Shown: piece after piece, positions 1,926 to 39,954 of the stretch | Position numbering within the stretch: position 1 is the first letter of the stretch | Layout: each line of letters begins with the position of its first letter | From: Saccostrea echinata | Lineage: Eukaryota | Reading direction: 5' to 3' | Assembly (NCBI RefSeq): GCF_033153115.1 | Contig: NW_026889767.1 | Coordinates: forward strand, 4,774,001 to 4,838,000 | DNA: 64,000 nt | Notes under the pieces: model-generated | What the model was told of the DNA's origin: nothing | The model's input: only the letters and a program-made list of their open reading frames with translations | Databases searched by the model: none | Position numbers and translations under genes: made by a program

Positions 1926-4900
1926 TCATAACATCCGCCGTATCATGTAGTTAAGGATTCCGCCGTGCCTAAAGTAGGTCAACTCCACCTCCGTGTCGAA
2001 CCTCGTTTTGACTTGGAATGTTTTGCCGTTACTCAGCTGAAGGAAAAAACATCATCATGATGATCAATTAATTGATTTAAAAAAAAAAAATGAGATAAAT
2101 TTATACTTCATAAAATGTCATTAGTTATGGTTTAGTAAAATACATGTATATCACTACATTATCAGAGCTGGAAAAAAATCTTAAGTTTCAAAAGTTGAAA
2201 AAAATTATCAAAAGAATCTTAGTAACAAATAATGCCAATGTTAAAATGATAATGAGGGATTAACCTGTAACAAAGTGTAAAACAACAATTTCACTGTTCA
2301 AATCAGTGAGAGAATATGTAACTAAGTCAATAAAGATGGTCCAAAACATTCATTGAATTCAATATCACACAGTACAGCAACCAATATGCCTAACTCATGA
2401 ACCTATTAACATTGAATTGGTATGGTTTCACTGAAGGCATGATCATGTTAATATTTGCCTCTAATCTTTTTTTTCCAACTTTACTGAACTACAGCCACTC
2501 TAAATATAGTAACACATGCTTACATTGAAGTGCTAGAGACGAGGGTTTCACTTCGTTATAGACATAATTCATTATATCTTTTAAGTTAATAATATGATTT
2601 TAGCCCACAGAGAATGAAAATCCCTTCACTATAAGCATAAATTCATTATTAACTTGTTTGCTATAAGGGTGTTTTACTGTATAAAGAATTTTGACCTTGA
2701 CCTCTATCACCACTCACCTTGACCTCTAACACTTGACCTGCCGTGAGGTTATCGGGGATATCTACAGAGTAGGTCTCTGTGCCAGTCAGCCCCAGGCTCT
2801 CAGCGGTCTGTCCCTCCAAATACTGGAACGGGATGATCCCCATCCCCACCAGGTTACTACGATGGATTCGTTCATAACTCTCAGCTATGACTGCCTTAAT
2901 TCCCTGTTAGAAAAAAAAGCAATCTTCTAGATTGATGTTACATGCATTCATTCACGCAAATAGTTTAATACGAATACAGTCAAACCTTGTTGTCTCAAAC
3001 TCAATGGGACAGAGAAAAAACTTCGAGATATCCGAGGATTTAAGATATCCAGTGTAAAATATGTAAAGAATAAGAAGTTGGGACTTCAAAATCACTTGGA
3101 CATGTCCATGATATTCGAGATATCAGTGTTTGAGATACCAAAGTTCAACTGTATATGCTCAAAGAAAGAATCCTTTTGTGTAAGTAAGGGAGTTATTTAT
3201 TTATAAAACCTGGATTTGTAAGAACCCTCATGTCTATTCCTCACAAATATTTCTGCTGCTAAAAACCTTCCTATAAATACATGTATGGTAAATGAATTTT
3301 TATATGCAGTAAATGAAGTACTGGAAGTGAGATTCCAGACTATTTCAGAAGAGACTTTAGAAAACAATCGGCTTGTGTGATATTGTGTAACGGGCATTTG
3401 GTACGTCAGACCAGTAGCTCAGTGGTAGACATGGTTAACAGGAGGTACCGAGTTTGAGTTCCCAGTCTAGCTGACATTTTCCCCGGCTTGTTATATTTGG
3501 TGCCCAACAACAAAACCCACGAGTGGTTTAGTGGAATCTTATGAGGTTTTCAGGATGGAAAACCTCAAAAAAGGAGTGTGTTACAGGGATTGAGTATTTG
3601 TTTATGTCTACCACATTTTAAGCAAAATAAATCTGTAGCAATGACATCCAAACTTAACAGCATTAATCATTAACTTCTCATTACCAGTATCCAGGGTCCC
3701 TTGGCTGCCCAGTCTCGGGACGACCCAGACCCATACTCTTTCCCTGCAAGAACAATGACCTGGCGACCATCCTTCTTATACCTCTCAGAGGCATCAAATA
3801 TGTCCATCTACAAAAAAGGGGAAAAAAATGAATTCAAAACAGAATGTCTTAATCTTGAGATTTGCATTAAATGATGGCATTTGAGTTAATAGAATAGTGA
3901 ATCTTAATTGATTCAACAGAGAATGGGGTTGCTGGTAAAAACTCTATTTTCAAAAATTTTCTTTAGTCAATCTGGTTGAATATTGGTTGAATTTTCTCTT
4001 AGAGTTAACAAAAAAAAAACATTAAGTGGGTTGTTTGTAATAACTAAGATGTGTCGATTACTCCACGAATGTCCCCACAAGCAGCCAAAATTTCAAAAGC
4101 AATATTTAGATTTAAATTTGTATTGAACTTGAACTGTATTTTCCGGAAACTGAAAATTTCTTATTTTTTTCCAAGTTCAAGAGGGATATCTCTGTCAAAA
4201 ATCACAGGACCATGACCAAATTCGAATTTGACCTGTATTTTTTGATAATATACCTGCATATGCAATTTCATCCTTATACATACATCCCTACAAAAGTTAG
4301 AGAGTGGAAACTGATAATTTCTTATTTTTTTTGTAAGTTCAAGAGGGATAACTCTGTCAAAAATCAACAGACCAGGACCAAATTTGAATTTGACCTGCAT
4401 ATACATATGTCGTATCCATATGTCAAATTAGATTTGAATGTGTGCAACTGTTGCAGAGATAATGAACAGAAAATGAAGGATGACGGAATGACAGAATGAC
4501 AGAACTGGGCAACACTATATGCCCCGGCCATTTTATGGCGGGGGTATAAAAATAAAAACCTTTTTTTCTCATCAAGATGGTTATCAAAATGAGTCTGACC
4601 CAAATCAAAATGAGACATAAGTCCCTCCCCCCCTCTCCAAAAAAAAAAAGCCTTGTGGTACAAGCATCACCAAAAAATAAAAAGTAACCCTTCTCTTTTG
4701 CACAAAGAGCCCTTCCAATCTCCACTAACCTCATCTCCGGATGGAATGTGTCGGGTCCTAGGACCAGCTTTGCTCATGAACTTGTTGACTAGACGAATAT
4801 TGGCAAAGGTTCCTCTCGCCATCACAGCATCATTCCCTCTACGAGATCCGTATGAGTTAAATTCACGAGGGGTTAACCTGTTAAAAAAATGTGAAGACAA

Positions 4901-7900
4901 TATTTTGCTTGAAAAACCTGCTTTTTTATGTTCGAACTATAAAAGTGAATGTGTTTATTAAAATTTTTATCACATACACGCAGCGGTGAAAAATAGAATC
5001 AAAGTACAGAATATTTCCATATACATGTGTTAGATGTACTTATTTTACAATGCTTCATAATTCAACTTTAGGGGTTTAAAGCAATATATGCACTGTATTT
5101 CCAAAAGCCTATGAATTCAACACTCCAAAGTAAGAACATTTCAAGGGATTCATAAACATACAAAAATTTTTCATACTTTGACTCAAGGGAGCTTAGTCAT
5201 AAGCTCTGAATACCTACCCTCTGTTGCCTAGGTAACGTGCTGCGGGGCTGTTTCTAGCTATACTACCGGCAGGGGATATGTGATCTGTGGTCACAGAATC
5301 TCCCAAATTCAGTAAAACGTGGGCATCTTTGATGCTTTCTGGTTTAGTGACTTCCTTACCCTGTAGAAAGAAGAAAATTTTCATAACAAACTTTTTAGGA
5401 AGAACTTTTGCTCAATATTTATAAAAATTTTATTTACCGCTCTTTATTGAGGGGTCAAACCTTACCATGTTTTCAAAGAAGGGAGGTGACTTGATGTATG
5501 TTGACTTCTCGTCCCAGGGATAAAGCATACCTTCAGGTGCTACTAACGAGTTCCAGCGTTTGTTTCCTTGCTGTTAATTTAATATGTCTAATATTAAATA
5601 TTACTATAATAAACCAGCATCAGACAATTTTTTGGAGAACATTAGTCAAAATCACTTATGCTGAATTAGAATAATTTGTATTTCAATAATTTTCATTACT
5701 GACATTTGACACTAGAAATTGGCTGGCACAATACATTGTACTAACTAAAGATTTCTTTTTAATAAAAAAAAAAAAAAAGAAGAAGCAAAGACATGCTGTT
5801 TTTAGCAACACATTTAAACATTTATCAATGTTAAAAACTATTAAACTTTAAATTCAGACATACTGTTCATATACATTGATATAATTTAAGTATTTCTTAA
5901 ACTCTGATATACAGAACAAAAATAAGAACATTCAAACAGAATAATTGACACCAACCTGGATTCTTGAGTAGACGTCGGTGAACATCGCAGGGACAACAAA
6001 TTCTTTTTCCACTGCCTGTTACAAATAACAACATTGGCATACATATACGTACAAGATAATAATTTTATGAAGGACAAAGAATATTCTGCATGTTAACACT
6101 TTGCATTTTGTCAAGGAAACCATGTTAAGGTCAAGATCTAGTAAATGAAAGGTGCCTACAGATTTTTTAAATTTGAGAAATAAATTCCATAAATTATGCA
6201 TTATAACTTTAGATTGGTCATTTAAGGTGTTTCGGGCATAATATGTAGATGAACAAGACGAAAAATCATATTTTAAACTGTCATTTTCAATGAAAAATTA
6301 AGAAAACCAGTCAGGAATACAGGAGTTTTTTTCCATATCAGACAAAGGACATGTGGCCTCTAAGAAAATGATAATTTGTATGTTCTTGGTCTCTTCTTAA
6401 AATAATATTAAACTGAATATAGGTATCGGGATTACTTTTCACATGACTTCAAATTAAACTCCTTGAAAATACTTTATTTTCTACATAATTAAATTAGACT
6501 GTAATGTACGGGAAAAAGAGAAGTTAAAATTGATTAGGCCAATTCAACTTAATTAGTAGATTATCATCCAGGGTCACTAAAAAATATGGGGCAGGTGGGA
6601 GGGTTTTATTTTTTATTTATCAGTTTTTTTTGTGTCCGATTTTGACAGTAATTCACGCCATCTGAATGTCAGGTTGGGGTGGATTGTTGTCAATATTTCC
6701 GCTCACGAAATCACTGTAGAAATCGATGATTGTTTTTTCATCACTAAAATTTGTAGCATACCAACCCCTTCTTTCGTTCACGCCTGTCACAACACGAGAA
6801 ATAATAAAAACCATTTCTCTTCTTGACATGCGGTTCTTGATGTTTCTAAACAGGAAATACTTTTTGAAATATAAATACAGGAATCAAACACGAAAAATCC
6901 GGGAAACATCATTCTTGCAAAAATAAAAAAAATTGGAGCGGGCCAATTTCTGAGGGGCGGGCGGGGATGATAATCTGTCAATTAAGTTGAATTGGCCTTA
7001 TGACGTCATAATGGATCTAGCACCAAAAAGTTTCTAAAGTCATTTACTAGATCTTGACCTGAAAATTTTAAGACCTTTTATCCCCCCTCCCTCCAAGCCT
7101 TTTGATGCATCTAATCCCTTTCTGTATACATATTTACTCCGTAAGAAACATACCTGGATTTCCTCTCTTGTTGGCCAAATATCTCTAAGATAAACTGGCT
7201 TGCCTTCAGGATTAGTACCTAAAAAGAAAGGAAAAGGATTTTAAAAATAAATCATACAGTACTTGTAGCATATTACAGTGAAAACTGCCTATTCTGACAC
7301 CTGTTGCAATCTGTTTCACTGTGAATCCCAACCTTTTTTTGATTTTCATTCCCATTTTTTCTTTACACCGTGCCATCTGACACACTGACTATTCCTTTAC
7401 AAAAATTTGTTTCCCAGTGCATATCGGATAAGACAGGTTTCACGTACACGTAACTGAAATCACTTCTTTTTAGTGTGTCATTCTGACTGGCTTCAAAAAC
7501 TAAACTTGGGAGGCAGGAAATTTCACTACCTTTGGTCAAAATAACCGTCCTGGATTGAATTGCTTTTTATTTTTATTTTAAGTTTCAGTCATGCAAATGA
7601 CTGTATACAATTGAAATCAAATTTACATGTATATAAATGTCCAAAACAGTGACAGGTACACGAATCATATCAGTGCAGAGGTGAGCATGTACTGTGCATT
7701 TAATTTGTTATTAAAATCTAAATCAGGGTGGGGTTTTTTTTGCAATTCGTGGGAGAGTAAAAAAAAAAACTCTTGTACATTACTCAATGGTACCACATAA
7801 CATACCCCTGTACTTGTAAACTAAAAACCAAACAAACAAACAAAAACCAACACAACAGAGCAAATTCCTACAAGTTTATTCCCTCCAACTTTGTTGCACG

Positions 7901-10900
7901 GGGATAAAAAAGGGTCAAAGAAAACAACTAAACAAAAGTACAGTGGTCGACTAATCCACCATACAGGGTAAATGTTTATATCTCACCCAGTGGATCTTTT
8001 TCAAAGTCAATAAGGACGGTTCCAGCAAGGGCATATGCGATGACTAGGGGTGGTGAGGCGAGGTAATTAGCTCTGGTGAGTGGATGGATCCTTCCCTCAA
8101 AATTCCGGTTCCCTGACAGAACCCCACATGCTACCAGGTCACCCTATAATATGTACATGTAGAAAATGAAAGTAGCATGAAGTGTGTAAAAACCTTGAAC
8201 AACCTTGTGGTCATTATTTTTTATACATAGAAAACCATTTTTTTTTTTTCATTCCAATTAAGCTACAGAGATTATAATTATTCATGTGCATAAATTATAC
8301 ACGCATAAGTTAGATGGGGAAAAAAAAAGATGCAAGTATTTTTCATAAAGTACTATGAATTACCTCTGTATGTGTTTGTTCTAAGTTTTTTTTTCAAAAA
8401 TTAATATACTGTTAAGTACCTGAGACACATTTTTTAGGGCAGCTCATAATTACTTACAATATTAAATATTCCTGAGTATCAAAACCCTATTTACCTTTTC
8501 TATGCCTTCTGACACAGGTTCTGGTAGGGGCCCGCTGTTACCAATGCACGTCATACAACCGTATCCTACGATGTCAAACCTGTCAACATCATTTTTATAT
8601 CATCAATGAAGTTAACTTTATCAGAAAAAAAAGTTCATGATTTTGTTTAAAGTCAATTTTTTGGAAAAGAAATAGATCAATTGGTTTTAGCTGAGCTGGT
8701 TTTTAATACCATCTCTATGCTGTCTAACAATTAAGACTTTTAAAATGGGAGTTTTTCTTTGTACAGGGTTTTTCCATTTTTCTTAAGAATTTTGACACTT
8801 ACACTTTTTTCAAGTACAAGGTGTTCCACTTCTCCCAAGATTTTGACATTTACCCTAGTTTTTCTAGGCAAGGAGTGACTCTTCTTTCCAAAAGATTTTT
8901 TAAATTTACCCTTGTTTTTCTAAGTTCTTCCCTGTGAGTTTTGACACTTACCCTAGCTTTTCTAGGTAAGGGGTGACTCCACTTTCCCTGAGGTAGTAAG
9001 TGACAACTCCACTTCCTGGAGACAGACTGGTTTTGATGTATGGTTTGACACTTAGCCCCGCCTCTACTGCTTTTTTAGCCAATATCCCTGCAGAGACAAA
9101 TTGTATGCAAATTCATCATAAGGTATGCTGATTATGATGCACATGAACTGTAGGATAATCTATGTGAATATTAATATGGAAGACAGATTACTCACAATAA
9201 TATCATATATGCTTTTATGATTTATAGAACCATTCATATGGAGAAAATGTGCAAATACTTCCTACAAGAATTTCCACATTTATAGTCTTTTTGGAATGTT
9301 GAAAGTCTCAAAGACAGAAGGATGAAAGAAAAAAAAATAAAATTGGTATGATGAACTAATGTTTCTACAAGGTATTGCATCAAAAACTGGCAAAAGTATA
9401 CAGTATTTAAACATTAAAAATTTTCTGTTGTGTATTATACCATAGAATTTTTTTTTTCTATGCGTAACAATTTTTGCGCAAATATTCCAAAAGACTGTAA
9501 TTTTCATTTTGCATAGTCCTATTTTCCTGATTCTTCCAATGGTTTATTAGAGTCAAATCTATCGATCTATGACATCTATAAATTTCTTAAACGGTGATAA
9601 TTTTGCAAAAATTCAATTTTTGGTGATCTAAAAAAAAAGCGAAAATTGCATTATCACAAAAATTGCCCATTATATGGTATTTCACCAACACTTACCAGCT
9701 CCCAGCATCACACTAGGGTTACTGGTGTTAGTACAGCTGGTGACGGCTGCTATGACGACAGAACCATGTGACAGGACATACTCTTTGTTGTCGAACACAA
9801 TGGGAACTTTTGTATCCTGCTTATCAGCTGGTATTGCAAAACCCTAAAATAGACCATTCAAAAACAGTTATTACCTGAAGCATTTGATAAAATCATGAAA
9901 ACTTTTAAACACCTCGCTTCTCTTCCCATTTCATACCCTTTGAGTCTAAAATTGCCAGTATTATCTCATACTTAAAATAAATCCGCTTCGAATGAAATTG
10001 ATTTTTACATTTACTATATTTTAGGTGTATATTTCTACCATGTTAATAGCTCTCCTTCTGTGTTCCGTACCACACTGACCCAAAAAAGTGACAAAATTGA
10101 AAATTTCCTCTTTGTAACTGAGTCTTAATACCAATTCATAAAATATCCACATGAATAATTTTCACAACAAACAAATACAGTACCTTGAATCCTATCTTGT
10201 TATCCAGACAGGCCTTGAAGTCAGTCTTCATCTCGGACACAGCGACCTTGTCGTGGGGGCGTTTGGGTCCAGAGCAACAGGACACAACTGTACTCAGGTC
10301 CAGCTCTACCACCTACAGATATTGGAGGAGTATTTTATATTTACTGAGGTCTACATTCTTTCAACCTTCTGTCACAAGAGAGTTCATATAAATATAATTT
10401 ATACAGTATACATGTACCATCAGTAACTAAGGGATTCTCAATAGCCTTGAATGAAAAAAAAAAAAGCTTTAGCAGTGGAAAAAACTCCTGCAGATAAAAT
10501 CAAAATTGCTTTCATTTTTTTCCGTCCTATTCCTACATCTATTTAATTTCACTCATCTTGTAAAATGCCAGTAATATATATTTATACATGTATATTTAAT
10601 GACCCCTCACCTGTGAAAACACTGGATCCTCCTCAGGATTGCTGTAGTTTCTAAACAGTTTGATTTCTCTTAGGAATTTCTCAATGAACTTGATTCTCTC
10701 CTCTGACCTCCCTGCAAGACAAAGCTAGCTTAGAAACACAGGAATATTTTCTAATATGACTATCAAAATATTTATGACTTGAAGTTGTTTTAATGTACAT
10801 TTGCCATCTGAATCCATGTGTAAATTTCACCCAGCACTGATCAGAAATTCTAATATGGGAAACGAAAGTTTTGTATTCTGCATAATCATGCATCCAGTAA

Positions 10901-13900
10901 ATGCGAATCAAACAGAATCTATATATGACAGGTCTTCTTCACAAGCAGTCTGTTTTTTAACACAAACAAATTATCATTTTCTTACATACATGTACATATA
11001 TGTAACCAAAGAGGAAAAACATGTGATGGACAAGACTGGGATTCAAACCTGGGCCCCCTGAATCTCCAGTCAGGGTGCTCTACCAACTGAGCTATCAGGC
11101 CTCTGGCAATCGAACCCATCTGACCGCCACACATATAATCTGTTCACAAACTCCATTTCTTTAAAAATTATATCCTCACCCACTTAGCTCTTGACTCTTT
11201 ATCTACCTGTTTGTCTGAGGTACTCCAGGCTTTTCTCGTCCACAGGGAAGAACCCCACAGTGGCGCCGTACTCGGGACACATGTTAGAGATTGTGGCTCT
11301 GTCAGCGATGGACAGCTCGGACACTCCTGGTCCAAAAAACTCCACAAACTTTCCAACGACCCCGATCTGTCTCAAGTGCTGCAAATTAAGTAAAGAAAAT
11401 TTGGATCCAGTTTAGTTGATTTCACGTTAAATTTGGTAAATGGTTGAAACAATTACATGACTGTATTTTCCTGTTTGATTGTACAGAACTTTTTACAGGT
11501 TGTATATAAAGTTAATGTACAATTTAATTTCTGCACTTTTAACATCTGCATATATTTCTTGAATACCATGAATTTTTCTAAGTCAGTTTTCCAGGCCTTC
11601 AAATGAGTCAAATTGCAATTTCTGTATGTTGAAAAACTTAAATACATGTATCTTTCAATTTTTCAATAAGTCCAAGCATGTTCAAGATAGTAAGGTTAAC
11701 TATAACTAGCTGGAACATCCCAGTAAAGAATACTATAAATTAATTTACCTTGGTAACAGTCAAGACGACATCTGTGGAGGTCACTAGATGGTCCACCTTG
11801 CCTGTCAGTTTATACCCCACAACCTCAGGTAACACCATACTGATAGCCTGACCCAGCATAACAGCTTCTGCTTCAATACCTCCAACACCTGCAAACAAAT
11901 AAAACATCAGCTAGTATTCACAGATGCAGAAATACATGTAGATATTTTAATCTTGTTTTCCATGTCAGAGTCAGACAAAGAAGTCTTGTATTAAGCATTA
12001 GTAGTGTTGAACTTTTAAATTCTAAAATTAAAATCAAGCACAATGGGTACCAATCATTAATCACTAAAGACAACATTCATTTTGTGTAGTGCAAACAAAA
12101 CATTTTTAATATTGCGAGCTAATTTATCTCTGGATTAAGTAATCTCTCTGGACAACGTTTGAATACTTGTTCATTCTTACCACTGTTTACGTAACTTAAA
12201 AATTGTCAATATTCAATTTTTTAGTCCTCCTACTTATAAACACCTTACTTCCATTCTAAGTACTTACCCCAGCCTACAACCCCTAGTCCGTTGATCATGG
12301 TGGTGTGGGAGTCTGTCCCCACGAGACTGTCTGGGTACAAGAGACCACCCTCATTGAAGACGACCCGGGCCAGGTACTCAAGATTCACCTGATGGACGAT
12401 GCCTGACCCTGGGGGAACTATCAACATGTTCTTCAGAGCAGAGGCTCCCCACTAAAAATGGAGGAATAATATAAATATATAGCTGATGGTTAAAACTGAA
12501 AATAAAACACTGTAAAATCACTTATTTTTTAAAGGGGTTTATTTCCTGAAGAGACCCATGGATACAAGACTAGCCCCCCCCCCCCCAACTATATGTGGCT
12601 CAACATATTTAACATTCAAAACTGCAATACAGTATCATTAGGTTTACACTTTTTTCAACACCCCCCCCCCCCCCCCTTCCCCAAGATCTAATTTTTTTCC
12701 CCTCAAACCACAAAAATTTTACCTCACAAAAATGTGATTTTTCAGCATAAATTAGTTTAATGTAAAAACTACTAAACATAGTATTACCTCAGTAGTGAAT
12801 GACAAAGAGAAGTAATCAAGCTCACAATTTATGTTTAAAAAATTTCTTCAGCTTGTGTCATTTTTGTCAAAATATTGGTAACTTACAATACCTTTAGAAA
12901 AACAAATCTTTCTCTATTTCTCTCAAATTCCAGCTCCTGATTTTGTTCTAAAGCATCAGCACTGCAAAGTATAAACAATTCCAAGATAAAATACATTTCC
13001 ATTATATAAATGTGTTATACATTCTGTATGTCAGGCTGCAAAAGAATTTGCTTTAGATTCATTTTGAATTTTCCCTTTCACATGCACACAAGCAGAATTC
13101 CCCTTTCTTGACTGTCAAATAAACATACTTATGATGCATGTACACTGTGAGTGCACAAGCAGACAAAAGAGGTAAAACATAACATGTTGTGATGTTTTGG
13201 TAATTCTGTTGCAAAGGCTAAATATTTCTAAATAAATAAAAAGATATAAAAAAAATATAGACAATGAAATGAATATTTTTCACTTCCCTTTGAATAATTT
13301 CACGCCAGCTCAACTTTTAAATCATGCATACTGTAAACCAACTATTATTCGAGTCAACTTTTATTCGCGATTCGTCAGTTTGAAATCAATCCGCGACGAT
13401 TAATTTTCGCGACTGAGGAAACATTCTCTACAAATACAAAGCAAAATTAATGGTTCACGGCGATTAATATTCGCGAGTTCAAGTATGTCGCGAAACTCGC
13501 GAAAATTTCTCACAAGCGAATAAAAGTTGGTTTACAGTACATTATGCCTATTGAATTAAAGCTATACAATAATATTTACTAAAATAATAATAAAAAAATT
13601 GAAAGCCCCACCCAACCTGCAAAAAAGTATATATAAGCAAACAACAGTAAAGTCAAAATGTAATGAAAACAGAATGATATATAATTCAATTTATATTAAA
13701 AACAAGCATGCATGAAATCAAAGCTGTTCACAGTTTATCAAAATATACTACCAACCCCTGTGTCTTCTGCTTGTGAAAAGGACAAATGTAATCGGAGATG
13801 GGAGACCGAGGGTCATGACACAGGTTGCAGGTTGACCTCTGTGACCCCTGAGCCCCTGAACTTTGACCTCCTCCAGGGTTGGGAGAATATTTCAATATAC

Positions 13901-16900
13901 TGAAACAGAATGACAGGAGTGAGGTTACAATTAAGAGTTTGCTATATGTTTAAGGTTTGAGCGTGAAGGTTTTTAAAGGATGAACCATGCTCTGTTTAAG
14001 GGAGATAACTTTTAAATTAAATAGTTCACAATGTTTCCTGTTAGAAAATTTATGTCTTTGGAAATAAGTTATTAGTCATTTTACTGTACCCAAGGAATTT
14101 TCACCCCCCATTTAATTTTTTTGCCCCCTCATCCTCACATGGGCAAATTCGATGGAGACTAATAGTGAAATTTCACCAAGGGGACAAGATTCAAGGTCTA
14201 GGACGAGGCTTTGCCGAGTCCTAGACCGTGAATCTTGGCCCCGAGGTGGAATTTCACTATTCCCACACGAGTATGTAATGAATGATTATTTTTCTCGCAT
14301 TATTTTATCCAAAATAATGGCCTGTCAATCACGTCGCCATAATAGGGCTAAAAATATATTCTTTTAATTTTCCATCTAATTAAAAATCTAAATACACCAT
14401 CGGAGAGAGCGTACCTGAAAAAGGTTTACACACAGTGTAAATGATAAAATGAATTTCAGTCCATGTAAATTAATTAGATAGATAAAAACTGGGAATAAAA
14501 AACTTATCTATCCGATAGCGTACACATTCATTCAAGAAGAATCCTTCCACGATCTAAAAATAGTGCCATTTAAAAAGTGAAAATACGACAATATTTTGAA
14601 TGAAAATAAGTTTATCTTAATAAGTTAAATGACAACATTTTGAGTATATGTAATATTTTTTAACATTGTTACAATTTTTTATATAAAGACGGAATGTTTA
14701 CGTTATCGTTCGCGGCGTAGTAATACACTGTGTAAGACAGAAAAATCTCACACTGATGTCTCACACCGGACAAGTCAATCTTACACTGGTGATTCTGCCA
14801 GAAAGAGTTATCTCTCTTTTATAATAAACACAACTGTATTTTAGCAAAGTATGTAATGGAGCAAAATCATTTTCATGACAGGACAATAACGAACCTTTAA
14901 ACAACATCTTAAATTGTAAAACTATATCATGTTTCAAATCTGCACAAATTTCATTCATTTGGTAGATTTTCAGGGAAACATTGCCAAAATTACGAAAAAA
15001 TATCATTTCATTGAGCAGAGAATTGTTCTCAGTTAAGGTTCATCATCCCTCTGTATATTCACATAAAAATTTTTTCACCCTAATGATTTTTTAAAATTAT
15101 TCTGATTTATAATTAATATGCATACAATTTCAGTGTACTTTACAGGCAAAATTTGATGGAAATTGTACTTGAACTTGACAATTTTAAGTAAGAATTATAG
15201 ACATTTATCCCAGGGAGAGTTATCTCTCTTCCCTCAGGGTCAATGAACCTTAAATATGTTGTTGACAAATAGCAGTTAAAGGACTTATCGCATGATCCTT
15301 CAAAAATCGTAATTTTATGAAAAATATTATCTATAACCTTATTTATTAAAATACTGATTACAATAAACATTGTTGGAAGCATATTTTAAGAGATATTGAG
15401 AGTTGAAATTCAAATACGATAAAATAAGTGATTTGGTCATCCACAACGCAGAAAATTCAGGTTGTATTGCGTATATTTTAGTAAGATTAATGAAGGGCTG
15501 ATCAGCCATTGTCGCCTTTGACGTCACAGAGTCATGTGATCGCTATCTAATTAACTTAGATTTTTAATTCAGGGGTTATCATTTGACTCAATAATTGGTC
15601 AATTACTGCAATTTATCCACAGTAAAAACACAGAATTTATGAATTGTGGTCATAAGCATGATAAGGAATGTAATACGCTTTTAATTTCAAATAATTTAAA
15701 AACATGCGATAAGTCCTTTAAATGATATACATGTAAATAAATAGACAAAAAAGCTAGCATAACTAATCAAAATCTAATGTGGAGAAGAGAGACATAAGAT
15801 AATTGATCAAAACAAGAATTGAGTTCCGAAATATAAAAAAAAGTTTGCATGCATCAATTTGAGTACAATATTTGTATATCTTATAAAATAAAATCCATTA
15901 ATGTACATGTAGAAATCTTCAGATTTTCACATACCATTTGCCTGAAGACTACTTGAAGCTTACTCAAGTCATAACTATCCATGTACTTGTATGTGTGCAG
16001 ATTTTGAACAAATAAGAAATCTAATGCATATGAAGTCAACAACTTGTTTTTTTAACCCCCCCCCCAAAAAAAAAAATCAGGGAAGTGCAGATATCAGGAT
16101 ATTCATGAGATTGTAAAGATTAGACAGTCATGAAATTTTTGTTTTTCATCAGTAAAAAATTGCAACATACTGTAATTTCCTTTTTTTTTCCATTTTTTAG
16201 AAGGTGGGAAAGTTAATTTTATATATTTCAGACTGACCTCAAATTTCTCGAGAGTACTTTGTATATTCATGATGAAAGAAATACAGTGTAAGTGAGTGAT
16301 AAGGTCAAAGAGCAAAAGAATAGACAAAATCCCTCCCTTTGGTCATTACCTCCTTGACACGTCCACCTGAATCGAGTGGTCTATCACGAGGTCTGCTGGA
16401 CAGATGGGGTTTATTTTCTCTGGATTTCCCCCCAGTCTCTTCACAGCATCCCTCATGGCAGCAAAATCTACCACAGCTGGTACTCCACTAAGAGGCAAAA
16501 ATAAAAAAAATTAACAAAGCTCAAGTTTGAGGATTTTTTCTTAAATCTAGTAGTAAATCTTTTCTTAAATCAGCACTTTTAATCAAGCACTGATAGTATG
16601 TTTGTAGATGTTGAAAAGAATAGTCAATAGCCCATAGAAGCTTGTTTAACAGACTTGGCAAAACATAAACAGCCAAACAAAGGCTTGGTTTTGTTTTGTT
16701 TGTTGTTTAACGTCCCTCTCGAGAATTTTTCACTCATATGGAGACGCCACCACTTGCCGGTGGAGAGCTGCAAATTTTGTCCTATATTCGGCACTTACGG
16801 CCATTGAGCAGTGAGGGATCTTTTTTGTGCCAGCACCTACTGCGACACAGGACCTCGGTTCCTCATCCGAAGGACCGGTCTCCACATCCCACAGTGGGAT

Positions 16901-17822
16901 TCGAACCCGCAACATAAGGATCAACTCCTTACTTCGCGACTCTAGAGCAGACGCTCTAACCACTGCGCCACGTGGGCAACACAAAGGCTGGGTGATGAAA
17001 AGGAAAAAGGAAATTAAGGAGGAATAATCCTTTGCTAAGAGAGATAAATCTAAATTTAAGAAATCATATAGGATTCCTTGACAAAATTTTTATCTTCAAC
17101 ATTCATTTGCCTCAAATTTTGCCCCAAAATGAGTGGAAAAAAATTGATCTAGATTTCATTTATATCTTCTTTTATTATGTGTATAAGATTTGTCTTAACT
17201 AAAAATCCCATGTTAGTGACCAGAGGGATTAGATTTACCCTTAAAGCTGTCTTACGTGAAATCTTGTAAAATCACCCTGGCAGGTTTGAATGGGATCTCA
17301 ACACTCTGTCCCTGATTTTTCTCCCAGTTCAAAATGTTCTCCACATCTTTCTTCAGCACTTGAAACTCATCACAATTTCTCACTGCAGACTCCAATAATA
17401 CTCGAATTGAAAATGGCAACTTTTCTGAAACAAAAAAAACAACAAAATATTATTTAAAGTAAATATTTCGTAGAAAGCAATTTTTGTACAGATTCAAATT
17501 TTATTTTCCAAGCAACAGTAATAATGTTAACAATACCTTTTTTCCCTTTCTTTCTAGGGTTGCTAAAATAACTGACACTGGATTGCTTAAATAGCCGACA
17601 CATTTAAAATTAAATTTTGATTAACTTTTCAGAACTTTCAGTAGAAGATAAAGGCAGTGCTCTCTCATATTAAACATGTTAAAAACAAACCACTAACCAT
17701 ATCTGGCATCTTTGAGATCTGCCAAATTAAAGAAAGTGAAGCTTTTCCCATCAATTTCAACATTCTTCTTTATTCCTCCATAAGGGTTTGTGGATCCTGT
17801 AAATAGTTAAGTAAAAAATACC

Positions 17823-17853
<31 letters not shown>

Positions 17854-19496
17854 GTATAAGTTAGAAAAATATAAAGCATTGACACTAATTCAATCCAGAC
17901 ACAGCTTATCAAATAATATCAAGTATATTATAAGCTACTGAACTGTAATTCCCTTGAAAGGAAAAATCAAAAAGGATTCAGTTATAATATCACTAATCAG
18001 TCAGGGGTGAGACTGAAATCCGTCATTTTTGAAAAATGATGGATAATCGTCATATTTACTAAGTACGTATTTTCGTCATTTTTGTCAATATGACTTACTA
18101 TCGTCATATTTTCTTTTTCAACTTAATTCTTCTATCCTGGTTACATAAAAGCGAAATTTGAATTCACCGCTGAAAGAAGAGTGTTTACGCAAGTTTCATT
18201 TCATCCGGGTCACTAATTACTGCCGACCACGTGCGTTAGAACATCAACATGGAAGGTGAAAGTTATTATTTAGCGGTAAAATGTCGAATTTTGGTAGAAC
18301 TAATTCGCCATTTTTACATGGCTTTTAGCCCTATAAAAACATATAGTACACCGTCGGGAAGAATACGTACTTGTAGAGAAAAGTCTCGACAAAAAGTTAA
18401 AGCCATAAAAAAGTAGTGCGCCCCGTAAAACAAGCGAGATATTTCAGTGCGCCCAGACCCTCCATTTTGAAAAAAGACGGAATATCGTCATTTTCGTCTT
18501 CTTTCCTATTTAATGCAAATAAATTGACAAATAACTCTTCCACTCTTATTTTTGCTTGGGAAATTTATACTGTCAACATAACCAGTATTGTAGTCAACTG
18601 TATTAGAGAAATGAAGTTCGTTTACGATGTTTTTTGTCCTTTTTTCGGTTGGTGGATCTAACATTTTTCAAAGAGAGGTAACTCGGTATTCTATAAACAC
18701 TCTAAATTTTTATGACTGTTTTTGGTCATTTTCTTAAAAATGACGAGTTTAAGTCATAATAAAAATTTTATTTTATGGCTTAAAATCGTCATTTTTAAAA
18801 TGACGGATTTCAGTCTCACCCCTGACTGCTAATAGAAAAAAAAATTAAATTACAATGACCTTTCTTGTTGAATGGTTTGGATATTATTTCTAACATAAAT
18901 CAAAGGCTTTTACAATATGTGGATCTGTAGCTCTCTATTTTGTCCGTCCAACTTTTCTTTCCCAAAGAACTACATCTCAGCAGCTAATGCATATCAATAC
19001 ATAGTGGGAAAGGGGGGTGGGGTGTTAAGCTTCACCAAAATTAAAAGCACAACATCAACTTTACAAAAAATCTCATTTAACAACTTAAAGATTTAACGTG
19101 AACCCGTGCTCAAGACATTGTTAACAAAATGAGCTCATGTTTTTTTTCCCCTTTTTTTCCTACAAAATTCTCGAACAGAGGTACAAATAAATATATAACA
19201 ATGTAAATGCAAAAATATAAGTAAACATTATTTTTTTTTTGACCCGTAGCCTAACTGTCACTGCACCGATAAATCCTGAGTAGGCCTAAGATCAAAGTAC
19301 ATTTCAACAGTGCAAATTACGCAAGACTTTGAAAGTGAACCGTTTCTATGCCATCTTTTTGTGGATCAAAATCTCACAAGCATCTAAATTGGAGGTAAAA
19401 TTATTTGTATTGACCGACTAAAATAAATGAGCACAAACTAAGAGAGAATATATAAAACAAATTGAGATGTTGTGATTCTCTACCTTCGGTCGCCAT
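1926..19496 (-). CDS. ACO1: Cytoplasmic aconitate hydratase / iron regulatory protein (IRP1-like); 893 aa without, 941 aa with the cassette exon
   Basis: Hand-spliced GT-AG exons in transcript order: 19484-19496, 17698-17796, 17256-17424, 16350-16487, [13756-13899 cassette], 12892-12961, 12268-12451, 11749-11888, 11207-11378, 10611-10711, 10184-10312, 9696-9843, 8952-9087, 8495-8579, 7987-8143, 7154-7218, 5956-6015, 5466-5570, 5218-5360, 4730-4877, 3685-3807, 2718-2903, 1926-2036. All phases are compatible (2682 nt without the cassette). Motifs: [49 protein letters not shown] and [12 protein letters not shown] (three 4Fe-4S Cys), [38 protein letters not shown]-terminus [12 protein letters not shown]. 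Confidence 0.98.
2977..3151. mobile_element. MITE, Tc1/mariner-pogo type
   Basis: Imperfect TIRs cagtcaaaccttgttgtctcaaac / gtttgagataccaaagttcaactg, with TA on both sides. Confidence 0.75.
3408..3475 (+). mobile_element. Degenerate tRNA-derived SINE head
   Basis: gtagctcagtggtaga (A box-like) ... gagtttgagttccc (B box-like); no intact cloverleaf. Confidence 0.45.
4042..4550 (+). mobile_element. Non-autonomous Helentron/HINE-like (CvA/pearl-type) element
   Basis: aactaagatgtgt start, two ~160-bp core repeats (aagttcaagagggata...gaatttgacctg), (acagaatg)n microsatellite, and 3' hairpin tatgccccggcc...ggcgggggtata followed by an A-run. Confidence 0.75.
6129..7059. mobile_element. Outer TIR element (Kolobok/piggyBac-like, TTAA-type site) carrying a nested MITE
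   Basis: ggtcaagatctagtaaatga (6129-) is the reverse complement of tcatttactagatcttgacc (-7059); flanks are ttaa / tgaa. Confidence 0.65.
6537..6997. mobile_element. PIF/Harbinger-type MITE
   Basis: TIRs ggccaattcaacttaatt...gattatcatcc / ggatgataatc...aattaagttgaattggcc, with TTA on both sides. Confidence 0.8.
7276..7444. mobile_element. Short degenerate MITE (pogo-like)
   Basis: ta-cagtgaaaactgcctattctga ... tcggataagacaggtttcacg-ta imperfect inverted ends. Confidence 0.5.
8790..8992 (-). repeat. Degenerate ~45-55 bp tandem repeat derived from an ACO1 exon end plus splice donor
   Basis: Three decayed copies of ttttgacacttaccctagcttttctaggtaaggggtgactccactttccctgag precede the real junction at 8951/8952. 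Confidence 0.8.
11028..11100 (-). mobile_element. tRNA-derived SINE head / tRNA pseudogene
   Basis: Reverse complement reads gcctgatagctcagttggtagagca...caggtttgaatcccagtc with A and B boxes; acceptor and anticodon stems are imperfect. Confidence 0.55.
13331..13537. mobile_element. MITE with TA target site
   Basis: TIRs ctgtaaaccaact / agttggtttacag, TA on both sides, internal tcgcga palindromes. Confidence 0.85.
13756..13899 (-). CDS. Candidate cassette exon of the ACO1/IRP gene encoding an IRP2-like Cys-rich insert (48 codons)
   Basis: Acceptor ttctgtttcag| and donor GG|gttggt; 144 nt, phase 2-2, no stops. Encodes (S)[47 protein letters not shown](G) between [10 protein letters not shown] and [12 protein letters not shown]. 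Confidence 0.9.
14161..14261. repeat. ~100-bp imperfect palindrome, probably part of a non-autonomous DNA element extending to ~14770
   Basis: aatagtgaaatttcacc...aagattca.ggtctaggac pairs with gtcctagacc.tgaatctt...ggtggaatttcactatt. Confidence 0.75.
15280..15717. mobile_element. TTAA-target MITE (Kolobok-like)
   Basis: ttaa-aggacttatcgcatg ... catgcgataagtcct-ttaa; perfect 15-bp TIR. Confidence 0.85.
16686..16980 (-). mobile_element. Full-length tRNA-derived SINE
   Basis: Head on the minus strand has A box (gtggcgcagtggttagagcg) and B box (ggttcgaatccc); (aaac)n tail; target duplication acaaaggct at 16677-16685 and 16981-16989. Confidence 0.85.
17998..18828. mobile_element. Non-autonomous DNA transposon in ACO1 intron 1
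   Basis: Perfect ~32-bp TIR cagtcaggggtgagactgaaatccgtcatttt; ctaat flanks both ends. Confidence 0.85.
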
Positions 19497-24210: not shown

Positions 24211-25989
24211 GGATTCCATGAGCATGTTGTATTAAAATCGCTTTCAGCATTGTGGAGGAATTTTTAAAACATATCTTAAGAAGTCTCTTATAATCACACT
24301 AGGATTTTTATTTTCCTTCTTCTCCATCTCATAAAACACCAAACTGTATCTCTTTGACCTCTGTTCATTGTACTTTAACTGCTTTTCATCTGCTTCTAGT
24401 TTGTCTTCGAGATCAGAAAATTTTCTCCAGCTCTCTTCACCTCATCTTTTTTTCCTTCCACCTCACTTAGCCTTTCTTTGTGGTTCTATAGACCTTTTTA
24501 AATCCTTTTAATCTCACTGAGTTGTCCTCGGAGACTGTCCTATGAATTTACTAAATTTATCTTTTTTGTTATTTAATCTTACTAAAGTTTACGTATAAGA
24601 CCAAATTTTTTGCTTCTGTTTTAGAGAACCCCCTTTCAGTCTATTTGTTCAACAAATTCCCCTTCTCGGTGATCTTTATTTTTTCCCTTGCCTGGCATAG
24701 TTTGTGGCAATCTGCTGGACTTTAAACTAAGTGGGAGATAACAAAAATGTCCCCTCTAAAAGACACACAAGAATTTAGTTTTGCTTCACTTGTTTTATTC
24801 GTGTATGTATAAATTATTAGAAGACATTGATTCACATAGTTTAAGATATGTTATATTTATCTTAAAAGGGAGAGCTGACTTGTAAGACTATTTTAAAACA
24901 TATGTATTTATTTCAATATTCTTTTAACCATATTTACCAAAGGATATTTTACTGCTCCTGTGTTAACTGGAACATGACATTTTTTTTTCTCGATCCCCTG
25001 AATTCGTAAGGGCATATACACGTTTACGCAATGTAAATTTTGATCGTCAGTTTTCTTATCTGTAAATAATTGAAGAAATCCAATAAGAGAAACGTCTCTG
25101 CTCGACTCTGATGAATCTGTACACTGATCTTATAAAAATTTTAAGGAAACCTGGTCAGTTTTGTATATTTTGCATTGAAAAACCCAAGAATTTTTCGTAT
25201 TTTATATTCTTTCAAACCCTTTCTATGTTTCAGAACATCTAATAGTACTGTGATTTTAAACTTTTAAATAAAGACCACTTGTAAAGTTACCATTAGGTAA
25301 ACAAGGTGCATGTACGTTGCATATTACCTTAAATAAATCAAAGTATTGAAAGTACAGAGTACAGAAGTACAGAAAGTACAAGTGTGAGTTTATTTTAATT
25401 CATTTTGTGTTTAATGTACCTGCAACGTTAACCCTGTTCTCAACTTTTCAAATCATATACAACTTGGAAACTTCAAAATTTGATATGTGAGAGACAAATG
25501 AGAGACAAATTACTAGATAAGACGTCACGATATAAGACTACACTTTCTAATGAAGACATACAGAATATTCAAAGGCATAAAGTTGACCTCTGACCAGAGA
25601 ATTTGTCCTCACCTTAAAACAAGGTTGTTCAAAGAAGATTTAAGTCATCTGATTGTTAATTCAGTCTTTTGAATGCAAGAAAACAAGAAGTTTTTGTCAA
25701 CAATAAAGAACTGTATATTACATAAATATTGCATGTATCTGAGTGTAACATTGAAAATTTTCACCCCAAGAAAACCATTGTCAACCGATATATATATTAT
25801 TTATTATATTATACTGAATGTTTTATACAGATATATAGAACAGTGAACCGTGCGCGCATAAATTCTGCGCATCAGTCACTATTTTTTGAAATATCACCCG
25901 TCGTTTTATACTGCAACATGTTGACTGTTGCTATGCTTGAGGGCTTGGCTTGGCTTCATTATTCAGCGGGTAATAGTGTTTTTTAACAA

Positions 25990-27690
25990 ATGTTTCTCGA
26001 CGAATCAGATTCAACTCATATACAGGGGCAATATGAGAACCATCTATCCTTCTGTATTCAGTAATCCAGAAGTGAAAATAGAATTAGATAAATTACATGA
26101 TCAGTACATACTGGTCCCTGCAGACAAAGCAGGTAACAACATTGTCTTTGTTTGTAAGGCTCATTATATTAAATGTATTTTAGAGGAACTTGGATTTAAT
26201 TCTACAAGTGGTAATGCAACTTATTCTCATAGTTCCCTTTCTAAGGAAGACATTCTTTAAAATCATATGTCATGATCAGTTTTGAATATTTTTAATATTC
26301 CAAACAACCAAAATGAATTTGAATTACCATATTTATATTGGATTCTGAAACTTCATAAAAATCCTTACAAACAAAGATACATAGCGGGTTCCAGTAAATG
26401 CTTAACCAAGCCTCTTTCTTTACTCCTCACTAAGAAATTAACAGTAGTGAAGGAGAAACTGCAAGAGTACTGTGCAACAATATATTTTAGAAGTGATGTA
26501 AATCAGATGTGGATACTTAAAAATTCCAAGGAACTTTTGGAAAATTTGAATTTAAAAGATTTTACCAAAATCAACAGCTTAAAAACGTACGACTTTTCAA
26601 CTTTATACACAACCATTCCCCACGATAAATTAAAGTCCAGGCTTTTTGATATCATTGACAGCTGCTTTTTCAATAAAAATGGAAATCGTAAATTTACTTA
26701 CCTTGTCATTGGTCATTTGCAAAATTATTTTGTTAAAAACCATTCTGATTGTACACACAAGTACTCTGAAGTTGACATTAAAAAGATGCTTGAGTTTCTG
26801 GTTGACAATATCTATGTGGTTTTTGGAGACCAGGTCTTCCAACAATCTATTGGTATTCCCATGGGTACCAATTGCGCCCCGTTATTAGCAGACCTTTTTT
26901 TGTATTCATATGAAGCAGAATTTGTCCAAAATCTTGTACGTGAAAAGAAGAAAACACTTGCTGTGGCCTACAACTCGACATTTAGATATATCGACGACGT
27001 ATTGTCAATTTACAATGGCTATTTCCATTCTTATGTCGATACGATATATCCCGGTGAGCTTGAGATAAAGATACTACAGAGTCTGACACATCTGTTTCAT
27101 ATTTGGATAGGATATTTTACTTGAAAAAGACGTTAATGGTAATCTAACAACAAAGCTTTATGATAAACGTGATGACTTTAGCTTTTCAATCGTCAACTTC
27201 CCTTACTTATGCAGCAATATACCTTCATCACCTGCATACGGGGTATATATCTCTCAGTTGATTCGATACGCAAGAGCATGCTCTACGTATGTACAATTTC
27301 TAAAACGAGGTAAATTATTGACAAACAAGTTTATGAAACAAGAATATCAGCTGTCTCGTTTAAAGTCATCATTTCGTAAGTTTTATGGTCGATACAATGA
27401 CCTTGTCAGCAAATACAATTTATCATTGAGTCAAATGCTGACTGACGTTTTTCACACTAATTGTTAGGCCATTATTTACACACTGAATTGTCGACGGATT
27501 TTTCCATCATTTCCCGATCATGACAAGGAGCACACGGCGGGTGTGACCGGTCGGCAGGGGATGCTCACTCCTCCATGGCACCTGATCCCACCTCTGATGT
27601 TTGGAGGTCCGTGTTTGCTCTGCTCCTATTTTGTATTGTTTAATGGACTTTTGAGCTCGATTACTGTTCGTTATCTCCATATATTTCATG
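25990..27690 (+). mobile_element. 5'-truncated, decayed Penelope-like retroelement (Naiad-type reverse transcriptase)
   Basis: VPADKAGNN, YWILKLHKNP, TYDFSTLYTTIPH, GIPMGTNCAPLLADLFL, FRYIDD, LIRYARACS. The ORF ends after the RT thumb with no C-terminal GIY-YIG, and there is an insertion between motifs A and B. Premature stop at 26258 and frameshifts near 26270 and 27070-27115. Confidence 0.88.
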
Positions 27691-27854
27691 AAAGTATAAT
27701 ATTAATAAATGTCGCACAAAAGCAGCAAAGAAACACCAAATGAAATTTAATGGTCCCTTTTTGCCTGAACATTTCAGGGACCTCTGATCTTTTCGTCTAT
27801 TTCGTCCTTGATTATTCATAAGGTAAGAAAAGAATAAGAAAAAGGTTCATGATT

Positions 27855-37900: not shown

Positions 37901-39954
37901 TACAGAGCTATTAATTTAAAGTGGAAGGAAATAAGACATTAGCATTCATGCATGAATTCTGCTCAATTCCTCGCCTAATCCATTTTGTTAAAAATTCTCT
38001 CTTTTTAACGGGATTAGTAAATGTGTTCAGAAATGGGAATATTCCTAGCAAAAATAGTCAAGAAGACCTTGTACATAATTTGCTGAATGGATGTTTCCCG
38101 CTAAACACCAAACGTGCAAAACAATCGATACACAAGGTTAGCTGAGAGTCTTGCAGTCAGGGAAATACAGAAAGTTTCTTTCAAGTCTTGTGATGGTATA
38201 TGATTTGTTTTATCCATCATGTTGTGTTCCTTACAAGTCACTGTTTGTTAAATCAAATTTAAATTAACCAATCGCTTTCTTATTTATATTATAATGCTGT
38301 GCATAATAAATAATAAAGCATAGAACAAGTTTTAGTTAGACTGCATCACGATCATAATGATGACCTCCAATTAATTTCTTTTGAGCGCGGACATCAGAGA
38401 AATTAAGTTCGTCTCAGACTAAAGCCACTTGATTACAATCGTTGAACATTGACGACATTTTCAAATTTTGTATGTCTTCATAACTTATAATTATCATTAG
38501 ATTGAAAAGCGATTCCTTTTCAATGTTTTGGGGCCTTTGTGGCAAGTGGATTATTGTGTACATTCCGATTGGATTGGATTGGATGTCTGATGCAAAAAAT
38601 TGAATTAGGTAGTCAGTTGCATCAGGCATCCATAGGAATATCCACAGATCCGTGACTTGCAACGACTATTGAGGGATATATATATATCAAGTGTTAAATC
38701 TGCTCTTGATATAAACTGCCTCATCTTTAATGCGTGTATATAGAGAAGCACTGAGGTATTTTCCGAATTCATATAAAACAGTACAAATTTCTCACTTAGA
38801 ACAATCTATGTCTTTAATTCAACATCTAGAACGACGAAGAGCAGTACAGTCTATAGGTAGATCGAGTCGTGTCTTTAATCTAACATTGACCAGAGAGTAT
38901 GCATGAAGAAGCATGTCCTCTGATTGGAGCAAATAGTATCAGTACGAGCTAGTTTCATTAGAATGAATCGTCTAAATCTTTGTTCATGAATTTCAAATTA
39001 CGCAATCGCACTTGCAGTTTCACTCCAACGTAAATAGTCAGTCCGGTGGATGACTAAATTACTATAATGAGAAACAGCGTCATTGTAGGGTAGTTAGAGG
39101 AAATTAGGTTTTGGCTATGTGACGAGTCAAGCACTTCTTTAAAAAAAAAAATCAACATTACGGTTAAAATCAAAATACATTTAAATTGAAATGGTGAGAT
39201 TTGAAACTTCTTGACTGGCATAATTTACCGCTTTCCGAAAACCAATGAACCGGTAAACTTTATCCTTAAGGGAAGTGTACTTAAGAAAGAAATTCTCACG
39301 TATGCAAAGACAAATGTAACTGTATAAACGTTTGCATCTCGAGGTATTAATACATCAAAACAATGCTCGTTAAATCTTAACGTTTAGAAAGATTTACGCA
39401 AAGCTGTCAGTGCATTGCAGGGCGTGATGTGTGCACAGGTACATGTAGTTAAATCTGCCGGATGCCTCATATGGAATGAACTGTGATCGACCGAAGCCGA
39501 TCAAAAAAATTCCATAATGATTATTGTACAATGATTGCAGTAACATTGTTTTGTTTCTTTGGATGCATAGATTCTTGAATGAAAACTCCCCATACTTTTT
39601 TGGTTCATATAAAGAAAGTCTTCCTATACCATCCAGTGATAATAATTAAGGTTCATTCTAAATGCAAAATGCAAGAATTAAATACAAGATATACAAACAA
39701 ATATTTATATAAAAAAATCTTTATTGTTACCACTTTTACTCATCGGTTACAATGAAAATTGTTCTAAATGGCATTCAATCAAATATTCATTTGTAAGATA
39801 CAAAGATTGTATTTTATTTTAAATAAATATTTTATAACCACACTATCATTGTAAATCGCTCTGTAGATATTTAATCCGTAATACTATCTATATTGAATCC
39901 CTAAATATAGCATGATGCCAGAGTTATATATTGAAAAATAAAATCTTTGCATTG

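What the first reader, a model, noticed from the sequence alone, without database searches (positions are those of the whole stretch)
3685..9843. The insert-bearing gene keeps IRP1-type catalytic residues that IRP2 has lost
Seen: all three cluster-ligating Cys (TSCTN, GCMTC), SGNRNFEGR and GSGSSRDW. Established, from memory: human IRP2 has Lys (SGNKNFEGR) and Asn (GSGNSRDW) at these two sites and lacks aconitase activity. Inference: the long isoform would combine a competent aconitase site with the IRP2-like insert, a combination absent from mammals, and so could model the ancestral IRP.
Basis: partly seen in the sequence, partly recalled or inferred. Interest (0 to 1): 0.7.

Follow-up and report, generated by a model that had tools for sequence, protein, structure and literature searches.

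The report
Oyster gene holds both IRP forms
This oyster's single iron-sensor/aconitase gene has an ordinary intact active site, but it also splices in a small exon resembling the insert thought unique to vertebrate IRP2, an exon annotated as optional from corals to lampreys, so our two iron sensors likely arose by dividing two ancient splice forms; whether the insert-bearing form is an active enzyme is untested.

Summary
Observation confirmed; interpretation partly supported. The window holds a 23-exon IRP/cytosolic aconitase gene (941 aa, identical to a protein NCBI names for Saccostrea echinata). All four motifs are present, and human IRP2 has K611 and N853 at two of the sites. But IRP2 keeps all three cysteines, bat and bird IREB2 keep the serine, and an intact site is the default (258 of 285 relatives). 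The residues lie in exons shared with the 893-aa short form, so they say nothing about long-form activity. The real feature lies outside the finding: a 144-nt cassette exon (13899-13756) matching IRP2's 73-aa insert in position, phase and end motifs. It is the main difference in 27 of 27 long/short pairs from corals to lampreys. The tree puts the oyster gene outside the vertebrate ACO1+IREB2 clade. Best reading: IRP1 and IRP2 partition two ancestral splice forms; the long form likely leans to RNA binding, since insert-bearing proteins in hagfish, copepods and a nematomorph also show active-site decay. No paper found in 10 searches; this scan noted the same cassette on two other genomes.

The parts
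1926..19496 (-). IRP / cytosolic aconitase gene, 23 coding exons, 941 aa with exon 5 and 893 aa without
   Evidence: All 22 introns GT-AG, open frame to TGA; identical to P0017; only such locus in G000 by a one-exon search
13756..13899 (-). Cassette exon 5, 144 nt, phase 2 at both ends, 48 aa (residues 141-188); counterpart of the IRP2 73-aa insert
   Evidence: Spliced to exon 6 in contigs of runs X1 and X5 with 0 mismatches; aligns to the IRP2 insert; pLDDT under 50 over most of 132-191
13866..13883 (-). PNPGGG motif (residues 146-151) at the start of the insert
   Evidence: PGG invariant in 17 of 17 invertebrate inserts aligned; [ND]PGG in 78 of 101 inserts; same motif in human and bat IRP2
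13818..13829 (-). CxxC (C164, C167) inside the insert
   Evidence: CxxC in 70 of 101 inserts
13773..13784 (-). CPFH motif (C179-H182), aligned to human IRP2 C201-H204; six residues from the exon end
   Evidence: C, P, H invariant in 17 of 17; alignment to IRP2; heme-ligand role of these residues in IRP2 is recalled
16350..16487 (-). Exon 4, with active-site D130-H131 (IRP1 D125, H126), ten residues before the insert
12892..12961 (-). Exon 6; receives either exon 5 or exon 4; holds the position equivalent to IRP1 S138 (Ala here)
   Evidence: Inclusion joint in X1 and X5; a 17-nt loose end matching the exon 4 end in one X6 contig; alignment
9727..9741 (-). TSCTN, cluster ligand C490 (IRP1 C437; IRP2 C512, kept)
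8546..8560 (-). GCMTC, cluster ligands C556 and C559 (IRP1 C503, C506; IRP2 C578, C581, kept)
8090..8116 (-). [10 protein letters not shown]589 (IRP1 R536; K in human, bat and hagfish IRP2-type proteins)
3709..3732 (-). GSGSSRDW, S831 (IRP1 S778; N853 in human IRP2, S in bat and bird IREB2)

Best explanation
This is the oyster's single, pre-duplication IRP gene, which likely makes two proteins by including or skipping one exon: a short form predicted to be the classical aconitase/IRE-binding switch like IRP1, and a long form with an IRP2-type insert that is likely biased toward RNA binding and sensing rather than catalysis. Shown: gene structure, intact active-site residues, inclusion of the exon in transcripts matching this species, a disordered-looking insert on an IRP1 fold, canonical-shaped IREs before four ferritin loci of the genome. 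Inferred: skipping in this species (seen in relatives); the insert sits ten residues after active-site D130-H131 and two to three residues before the IRP1 S138 position, a loop where modification is reported to destabilise the 4Fe-4S cluster, so inclusion would weaken the cluster and add a Cys/His sensor (CPFH, heme or metal). The catalytic residues persist because the short form needs them. After the vertebrate duplication ACO1 would have lost the exon, and IREB2 fixed it and then lost R536.
For: Gene model and identity. One locus in G000. Inclusion joint with GT-AG ends in X1 and X5; skip-type loose end in X6. 27 of 27 hand-picked long/short pairs from 26 species (oysters, mussels, abalone, lampreys, amphioxus, echinoderms, corals, ticks, Daphnia, Penaeus) differ by one block at this site. 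Junction residues change as phase-2/phase-2 splicing predicts: lamprey N to K, Amphiura R to S, and C to W in a bird IREB2 model that lacks the exon. A profile of 17 invertebrate inserts alone matches bat IREB2 at residues 140-154 (pairwise E 2e-4) but not shark ACO1 (E 0.61). Oyster lies outside vertebrate ACO1+IREB2. Lamprey keeps all 20 sites and an optional exon and groups with IREB2 at 96/96. Insert-bearing proteins with decayed sites occur in gnathostome IREB2, hagfish, copepods and a nematomorph. Model: TM 0.79 to 2b3x, insert pLDDT under 50. S138 phosphorylation destabilising the cluster: paper title seen in a reference list. An IRP1 chimera with the 73 aa reportedly lacked aconitase activity (Phillips 1996; recalled, not readable).
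Against: No activity, cluster or binding data exist here. The insert-only profile is not significant against the whole PDB (IRP2 E 3.2, ranked 15 of 15 listed). Skipping was not shown for this species: the one skip-type end is 17 nt in one contig of a related organism, X1 and X5 are only guessed to be RNA, and contigs give no levels. Isoform pairs are automated annotations. Lamprey placement is unstable (IREB2 outside cyclostomes+ACO1 at support 78; AU p 0.048). A second, active gene was not looked for in hagfish, copepods or the nematomorph; their proteins join IREB2 on very long branches, so independence is assumed; insert-free proteins with decayed sites also exist (P0313, P0326). The oyster insert is 48 aa, not 73. 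In human cells the 73 aa are dispensable for iron-dependent degradation (PMC2267205).
Confidence: 0.6

Rival explanations
1. One reading: the long form is a fully competent aconitase/IRP1-type switch that merely carries an added sensor loop; aconitase loss in IRP2 came later and independently of the insert.
For: All 20 scored sites intact; the model folds as IRP1 with the insert as a low-confidence excursion; the insert ranges from 27 to 440 aa, which suggests a tolerant surface loop; for this species only the 941-aa form was among the 15 of 28 cluster members listed and inclusion is seen in RNA contigs.
Against: The residues are shared with the short form, so carry no information on the long form; insert is next to D130-H131 and the S138 loop; active-site decay in several insert-bearing lineages; recalled chimera result.
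Confidence: 0.3
2. The insert is a small metal-binding module (C164, C167, C179, H182, a CxxC...CxxH site for zinc or iron) or a protein-binding tag, not a heme sensor, and changes partners, location or turnover of the long form rather than its cluster.
For: CxxC in 70 of 101 inserts and CP[FYM]H by definition in all; the IRP2 insert is needed for a growth phenotype while its function is called largely unknown (PMC2854138).
Against: Coral, Nematostella and Ixodes inserts lack the CxxC; no ordered fold predicted; no Pfam or Atlas lead.
Confidence: 0.2
3. The invertebrate and IRP2 inserts arose separately at a permissive loop, or the exon is minor splicing noise without function.
For: The middle of the insert is not alignable; insert-only profile is not significant at database scale.
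Against: Same position, same phase at both ends, two shared end motifs in the same order with fixed spacing to the exon end, kept from corals to lampreys and bats.
Confidence: 0.05

Closest known systems
Vertebrate IRP1 / cytosolic aconitase ACO1 (PDB 2b3x, 3sn2)
   Same: Four-domain fold (TM 0.79, 68% identity to 2b3x); all 20 scored active-site and cluster residues; short form is colinear at 893 aa.
   Different: Optional 48-aa insert after residue 140; Ala at the S138 position; co-orthologue of ACO1 and IREB2, not an ACO1 orthologue alone.
Vertebrate IRP2 / IREB2 and its 73-aa insert (PDB 6vcd)
   Same: Insert at the same site on its own exon, beginning near PNPGGG and ending CPFH plus six residues; predicted unstructured; three cluster cysteines kept in both; 58% identity to bat IREB2.
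   Different: Keeps R536 and S778 equivalents; insert shorter and annotated as optional; outside the IREB2 clade; FBXL5-dependent turnover not tested.
Lamprey IRP (Petromyzon, Lampetra; P0076, P0238 long, P0242, P0235 short)
   Same: Intact site plus optional insert exon ending in CPFH.
   Different: Inside the vertebrate clade, probably on the IREB2 side; insert lacks PNPGGG.
Mollusc cytoplasmic aconitate hydratase, e.g. razor clam SccAH (PMC12896564) and RefSeq oyster isoforms X1/X2
   Same: Single mollusc IRP tied to ferritin control; X1 941 aa and X2 893 aa already annotated in five oysters.
   Different: The passages read do not mention isoforms, splicing or an insert (0 hits); RefSeq names do not link X1 to IRP2.

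Membership tests
IRP / cytosolic aconitase family | Aconitase and Aconitase_C domains, IRP1-type fold | tested here: met
   PF00330 E 1e-161, PF00694 E 5e-40; best fold match 2b3x
IRP1-type bifunctional aconitase | Three cluster Cys and substrate/catalytic residues incl. R536, R541, S778, R780 | tested here: met
   20 of 20 sites; the list of sites is recalled from the aconitase literature
IRP1-type bifunctional aconitase | 4Fe-4S binding and aconitase activity (each isoform) | not testable with these tools
   Needs enzyme assay
IRP1-type bifunctional aconitase | IRE binding in the apo form | not testable with these tools
   Only a plausible target was found: IRE-shaped hairpins before 4 of 6 ferritin loci; Rfam did not score them
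Vertebrate ACO1 orthologues | Inside the gnathostome ACO1 clade | tested here: not met
   AU p 5.5e-5 against bivalves + ACO1
Vertebrate IRP2 (IREB2) | Cys/Pro-rich insert in domain 1 on a separate exon | tested here: met
   48-aa counterpart, same site and phase, shared end motifs; weak at database scale
Vertebrate IRP2 (IREB2) | Loss of active-site residues (K611; N853 in human) | tested here: not met
   R589 and S831
Vertebrate IRP2 (IREB2) | Inside the IREB2 clade | tested here: not met
   AU p 3.4e-10 against bivalves + IREB2
Vertebrate IRP2 (IREB2) | Iron-dependent degradation through FBXL5 and domain 4 | not tested
   Interface paper not held; FBXL5 not searched in G000
Heme regulatory (Cys-Pro) motif | CP motif aligned to IRP2 C201-P202 with H204 | tested here: met
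   C179-P-F-H182
Heme regulatory (Cys-Pro) motif | Heme binding with a regulatory effect | not testable with these tools
   Needs spectroscopy

The most novel reading that the evidence does not exclude
The IRP1/IRP2 division of labour is older than vertebrates and was first a splicing switch: since the cnidarian-bilaterian ancestor one gene has made an aconitase-type sensor and, through a cassette exon with an invariant CPFH, an IRP2-type sensor whose insert turns catalysis down; whenever the long form got its own gene (jawed vertebrates, hagfish, copepods, horsehair worms) the active site decayed. The conserved function of IRP2's unexplained 73-aa insert would then lie in two short end motifs.
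Probability: 0.4. Interest if true: 0.75.

Novelty: new variant of a known kind. Interest (0 to 1): 0.5.

Why it matters
Reviews and papers describe the 73-aa insert as what distinguishes IRP2 from IRP1, with function largely unknown (PMC3048577; PMC2854138), and invertebrates as having an IRP1 homologue only (sponges: PMC7034838). An optional homologous exon across animals changes the origin story of the two sensors, reduces the insert's conserved core to PNPGGG and CPFH, and supplies natural isogenic pairs (same protein with and without the insert, active site intact) to test directly what the insert does to cluster stability, RNA binding, heme binding and turnover. The conserved catalytic residues alone, the finding as titled, are ordinary.

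Tried and rejected
Single oyster insert against PDB sequences: no match at E up to 10. Insert-only profile against PDB: IRP2 listed at residues 140-207 but E 3.2, below tau and catalase chance hits. Pfam on the insert: none. ESM Atlas on residues 135-195: only aconitase-fragment clusters under 0.9, no lead. Tree with copepod and nematomorph proteins: they join IREB2 on branches of 2 to 4 changes per site with a long-branch warning, and the careful search did not finish; not used for placement. An ancient pre-bilaterian IRP2 paralogue is the literal reading of that tree; rejected as probable long-branch attraction, not excluded. Contig depths (exon 6 vs cassette: X1 48.9 vs 16.1, X5 65.4 vs 65.4) were not used as inclusion levels. 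Rfam IRE search of G000 found nothing and its control rang nowhere; Rfam scans of ferritin loci gave no IRE hit; IRE hairpin energies are not below shuffles (z -1.1 and -1.5). Primary papers on IRP2 chimeras, heme binding and the FBXL5 interface were not held. No complex prediction was run. No supplements were read.
Full report
Gene and observation. The minus strand of 1926-19496 holds a 23-exon gene with GT-AG introns throughout and an open frame of 941 aa; leaving out exon 5 (13899-13756, 144 nt, phase 2 at both ends) gives 893 aa. The long model is identical over 941 of 941 residues to P0017, which NCBI names cytoplasmic aconitate hydratase-like of Saccostrea echinata. A search of the own genome with one conserved exon found 1 match among 4 candidates scored, the window itself. 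[19 protein letters not shown] and GSGSSRDW begin at residues 488, 555, 586 and 828. Human IRP1 has R536 and S778, human IRP2 K611 and N853 at the aligned positions.

What the residues do and do not show. IRP2 keeps all three cluster cysteines, so only two sites separate the proteins in the finding. The Asn is not general: 6 of 6 full-length bat IREB2 sequences (a seventh is truncated before the site) and a bird IREB2 fragment have Ser; only the Lys is shared by the jawed-vertebrate IREB2 sequences that cover it. Of 285 proteins of at least 780 aa (shorter ones dropped; the set is redundant), 258 keep all 20 scored sites: 171 of 182 without the insert and 87 of 103 with it; 18 differ only by gaps and 9 by substitutions, 4 of these hagfish. 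The list of sites is recalled. An intact site is therefore the default. All four motifs lie in exons 12-21, common to both forms, so they cannot show that the long form is active.

The cassette exon. Contigs of runs X1 and X5 cover exon 5 without mismatch and join 13756 to 12961 with the intron's GT-AG ends; X6 and X7 (another organism, 8 differences) show matching loose ends, and one X6 contig carries 17 nt like the exon 4 end directly on exon 6, the skip form. X1, X5 and X7 are only guessed to be RNA and contigs give no levels. I picked 27 long/short pairs from 26 species out of the cluster and search lists; 27 of 27 differ by one block at this site, two of them also at the N-terminus. They span corals, molluscs, ticks, crustaceans, echinoderms, amphioxus and lampreys. 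Among 101 parsed inserts the length runs from 27 to 440 aa, 78 have [ND]PGG near the start and 70 a CxxC; in 17 aligned invertebrate inserts PGG and C, P, H of CPFH are invariant. Human and bat IRP2 have NAPNPGGG at the start and CPFH six residues from the end. Junction residues behave as phase-2/phase-2 splicing predicts, including a C-to-W change in a bird IREB2 model that lacks the exon (inference from protein models, vertebrate genomic DNA not examined). The insert-only profile matches bat IREB2 at 140-154 (pairwise E 2e-4) and not shark ACO1 (E 0.61); against the whole PDB it finds IRP2 at 140-207 but only at E 3.2. Homology rests on position, phase and motif order together, not on score.

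Phylogeny. With inserts removed, a careful tree of 20 rows puts gnathostome ACO1, IREB2 and cyclostome proteins on one branch (100/100) and the oyster with bivalves (98/96); a quick tree of 33 rows agrees on both. Forcing bivalves with IREB2 or with ACO1 is rejected (p 3.4e-10, 5.5e-5). Lamprey and hagfish group with IREB2 at 96/96, but not (support 78 for the alternative), and the alternative is barely rejected (p 0.048). IREB2 is represented only by bats and one bird fragment. The lamprey protein keeps all 20 sites and an optional exon; hagfish has the insert with C437Y, R536K, R541Q, D678N, S778G.

Structure. The AlphaFold2 model (75 sequences; mean pLDDT 84, pTM 0.82) matches human IRP1 best (TM 0.79 to 2b3x); most of residues 132-191 are under pLDDT 50. 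The insert starts ten residues after D130-H131 and ends just before the position of IRP1 S138. A paper title in a reference list states that S138 phosphorylation destabilises the cluster. The model cannot say whether the long form holds a cluster.

Mechanism. Shown: gene, residues, inclusion, fold, and IRE-shaped hairpins (UGC bulge, 5-bp stem, CAGUGA loop) upstream of 4 of 6 ferritin loci, in L004 about 85 nt before the ATG (the four look like two genes present on two contigs; Rfam did not score them). Inferred: the short form works as the IRP1 switch; the long form adds a Cys/His sensor beside the active site and leans to RNA binding. Against: these decayed proteins came from a search biased to divergent sequences, two insert-free decayed proteins were in the same set, their active paralogues were not sought, and they join IREB2 on long branches.

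Literature. PMC3048577 (passages): the 73 aa distinguish IRP2, lie on a separate exon, appear unstructured; IRP2 arose by a later duplication. PMC2854138 (passages): unique insert, function largely unknown, needed for tumour promotion. PMC2267205 (abstract, background, part of results and references): insert dispensable for degradation, domain 4 needed, heme and iron-binding models listed. PMC3904948 (passages): a heme regulatory motif in human IRP2 is tied to its degradation. PMC7034838 (passages): sponges have one IRP1 homologue. PMC12896564 (passages): razor clam cAH; no hit for isoform, splicing or insert. PMC13676908 (passages): nothing further. Ten searches showed no paper on an IRP2-type exon in invertebrates; most subscription papers are not in the library, so this is weak evidence of absence. 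The isoforms themselves are already in RefSeq. Two earlier notes of this scan reached the same cassette reading on other genomes; my reading was filed before I saw them, and they are not counted as support.

Verdict. The finding as titled is expected conservation. Its context is real and worth follow-up: an ancient optional exon that is the counterpart of IRP2's insert, in a gene outside the vertebrate duplication. New variant of a known kind; interest 0.5.

Noticed in passing
P0462, P0463, P0312, P0465-P0467 (bat IREB2); P0315 (bird IREB2 fragment): Ser, not Asn, at the IRP1 S778 site, so the second 'IRP2 loss' is lineage-specific; R536K is the shared change.
   Followed up: partly
P0077, P0244-P0246 (hagfish); P0468, P0322, P0403 (copepods); P0318 (unnamed); P0335 (Gordionus): Insert-bearing IRPs with decayed active sites, possibly repeated IRP2-like evolution; Gordionus has Asn at the S778 site like human IRP2. 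P0403 was not scored at the sites (717 aa).
   Followed up: partly
P0076, P0238 and short forms P0242, P0235 (lampreys): Vertebrate IRP with intact site and optional insert exon, sharing several IRP2-type residues (DFTGIP, CVGN, YGARRGN).
   Followed up: partly
window 8850-8960: Degenerate copies of the 3' end and donor site of exon 13 in the following intron, seen by eye; Tandem Repeats Finder did not report them.
   Followed up: no
window 13328-13539: About 210-nt high-copy, MITE-like element in the intron between exons 5 and 6; many contigs of all four runs lie on it.
   Followed up: no
window 47492-53723 (+): HEPN_DZIP3 exon, then nSTAND3 NTPase and ankyrin repeats in two in-frame ORFs separated by one stop at 51912-51914; a NOD-like immune-type gene, possibly broken.
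   Followed up: partly
window 25925-27743 (+) and 39884-42146 (-): Fragmented reverse-transcriptase-type retroelement copies (weak RVT_1 hit for the first).
   Followed up: no
L002-L005 (G000 C16 and C54): Two neighbouring ferritin genes, each with an IRE-shaped hairpin, appear on both contigs in near-identical form; may be an assembly duplicate.
   Followed up: partly
P0053, P0303, P0304 (Penaeus), P0071 (Elysia), P0065 (Aplysia): The insert has expanded to about 250-440 aa in decapods and some gastropods while keeping CPFH at its end.
   Followed up: no
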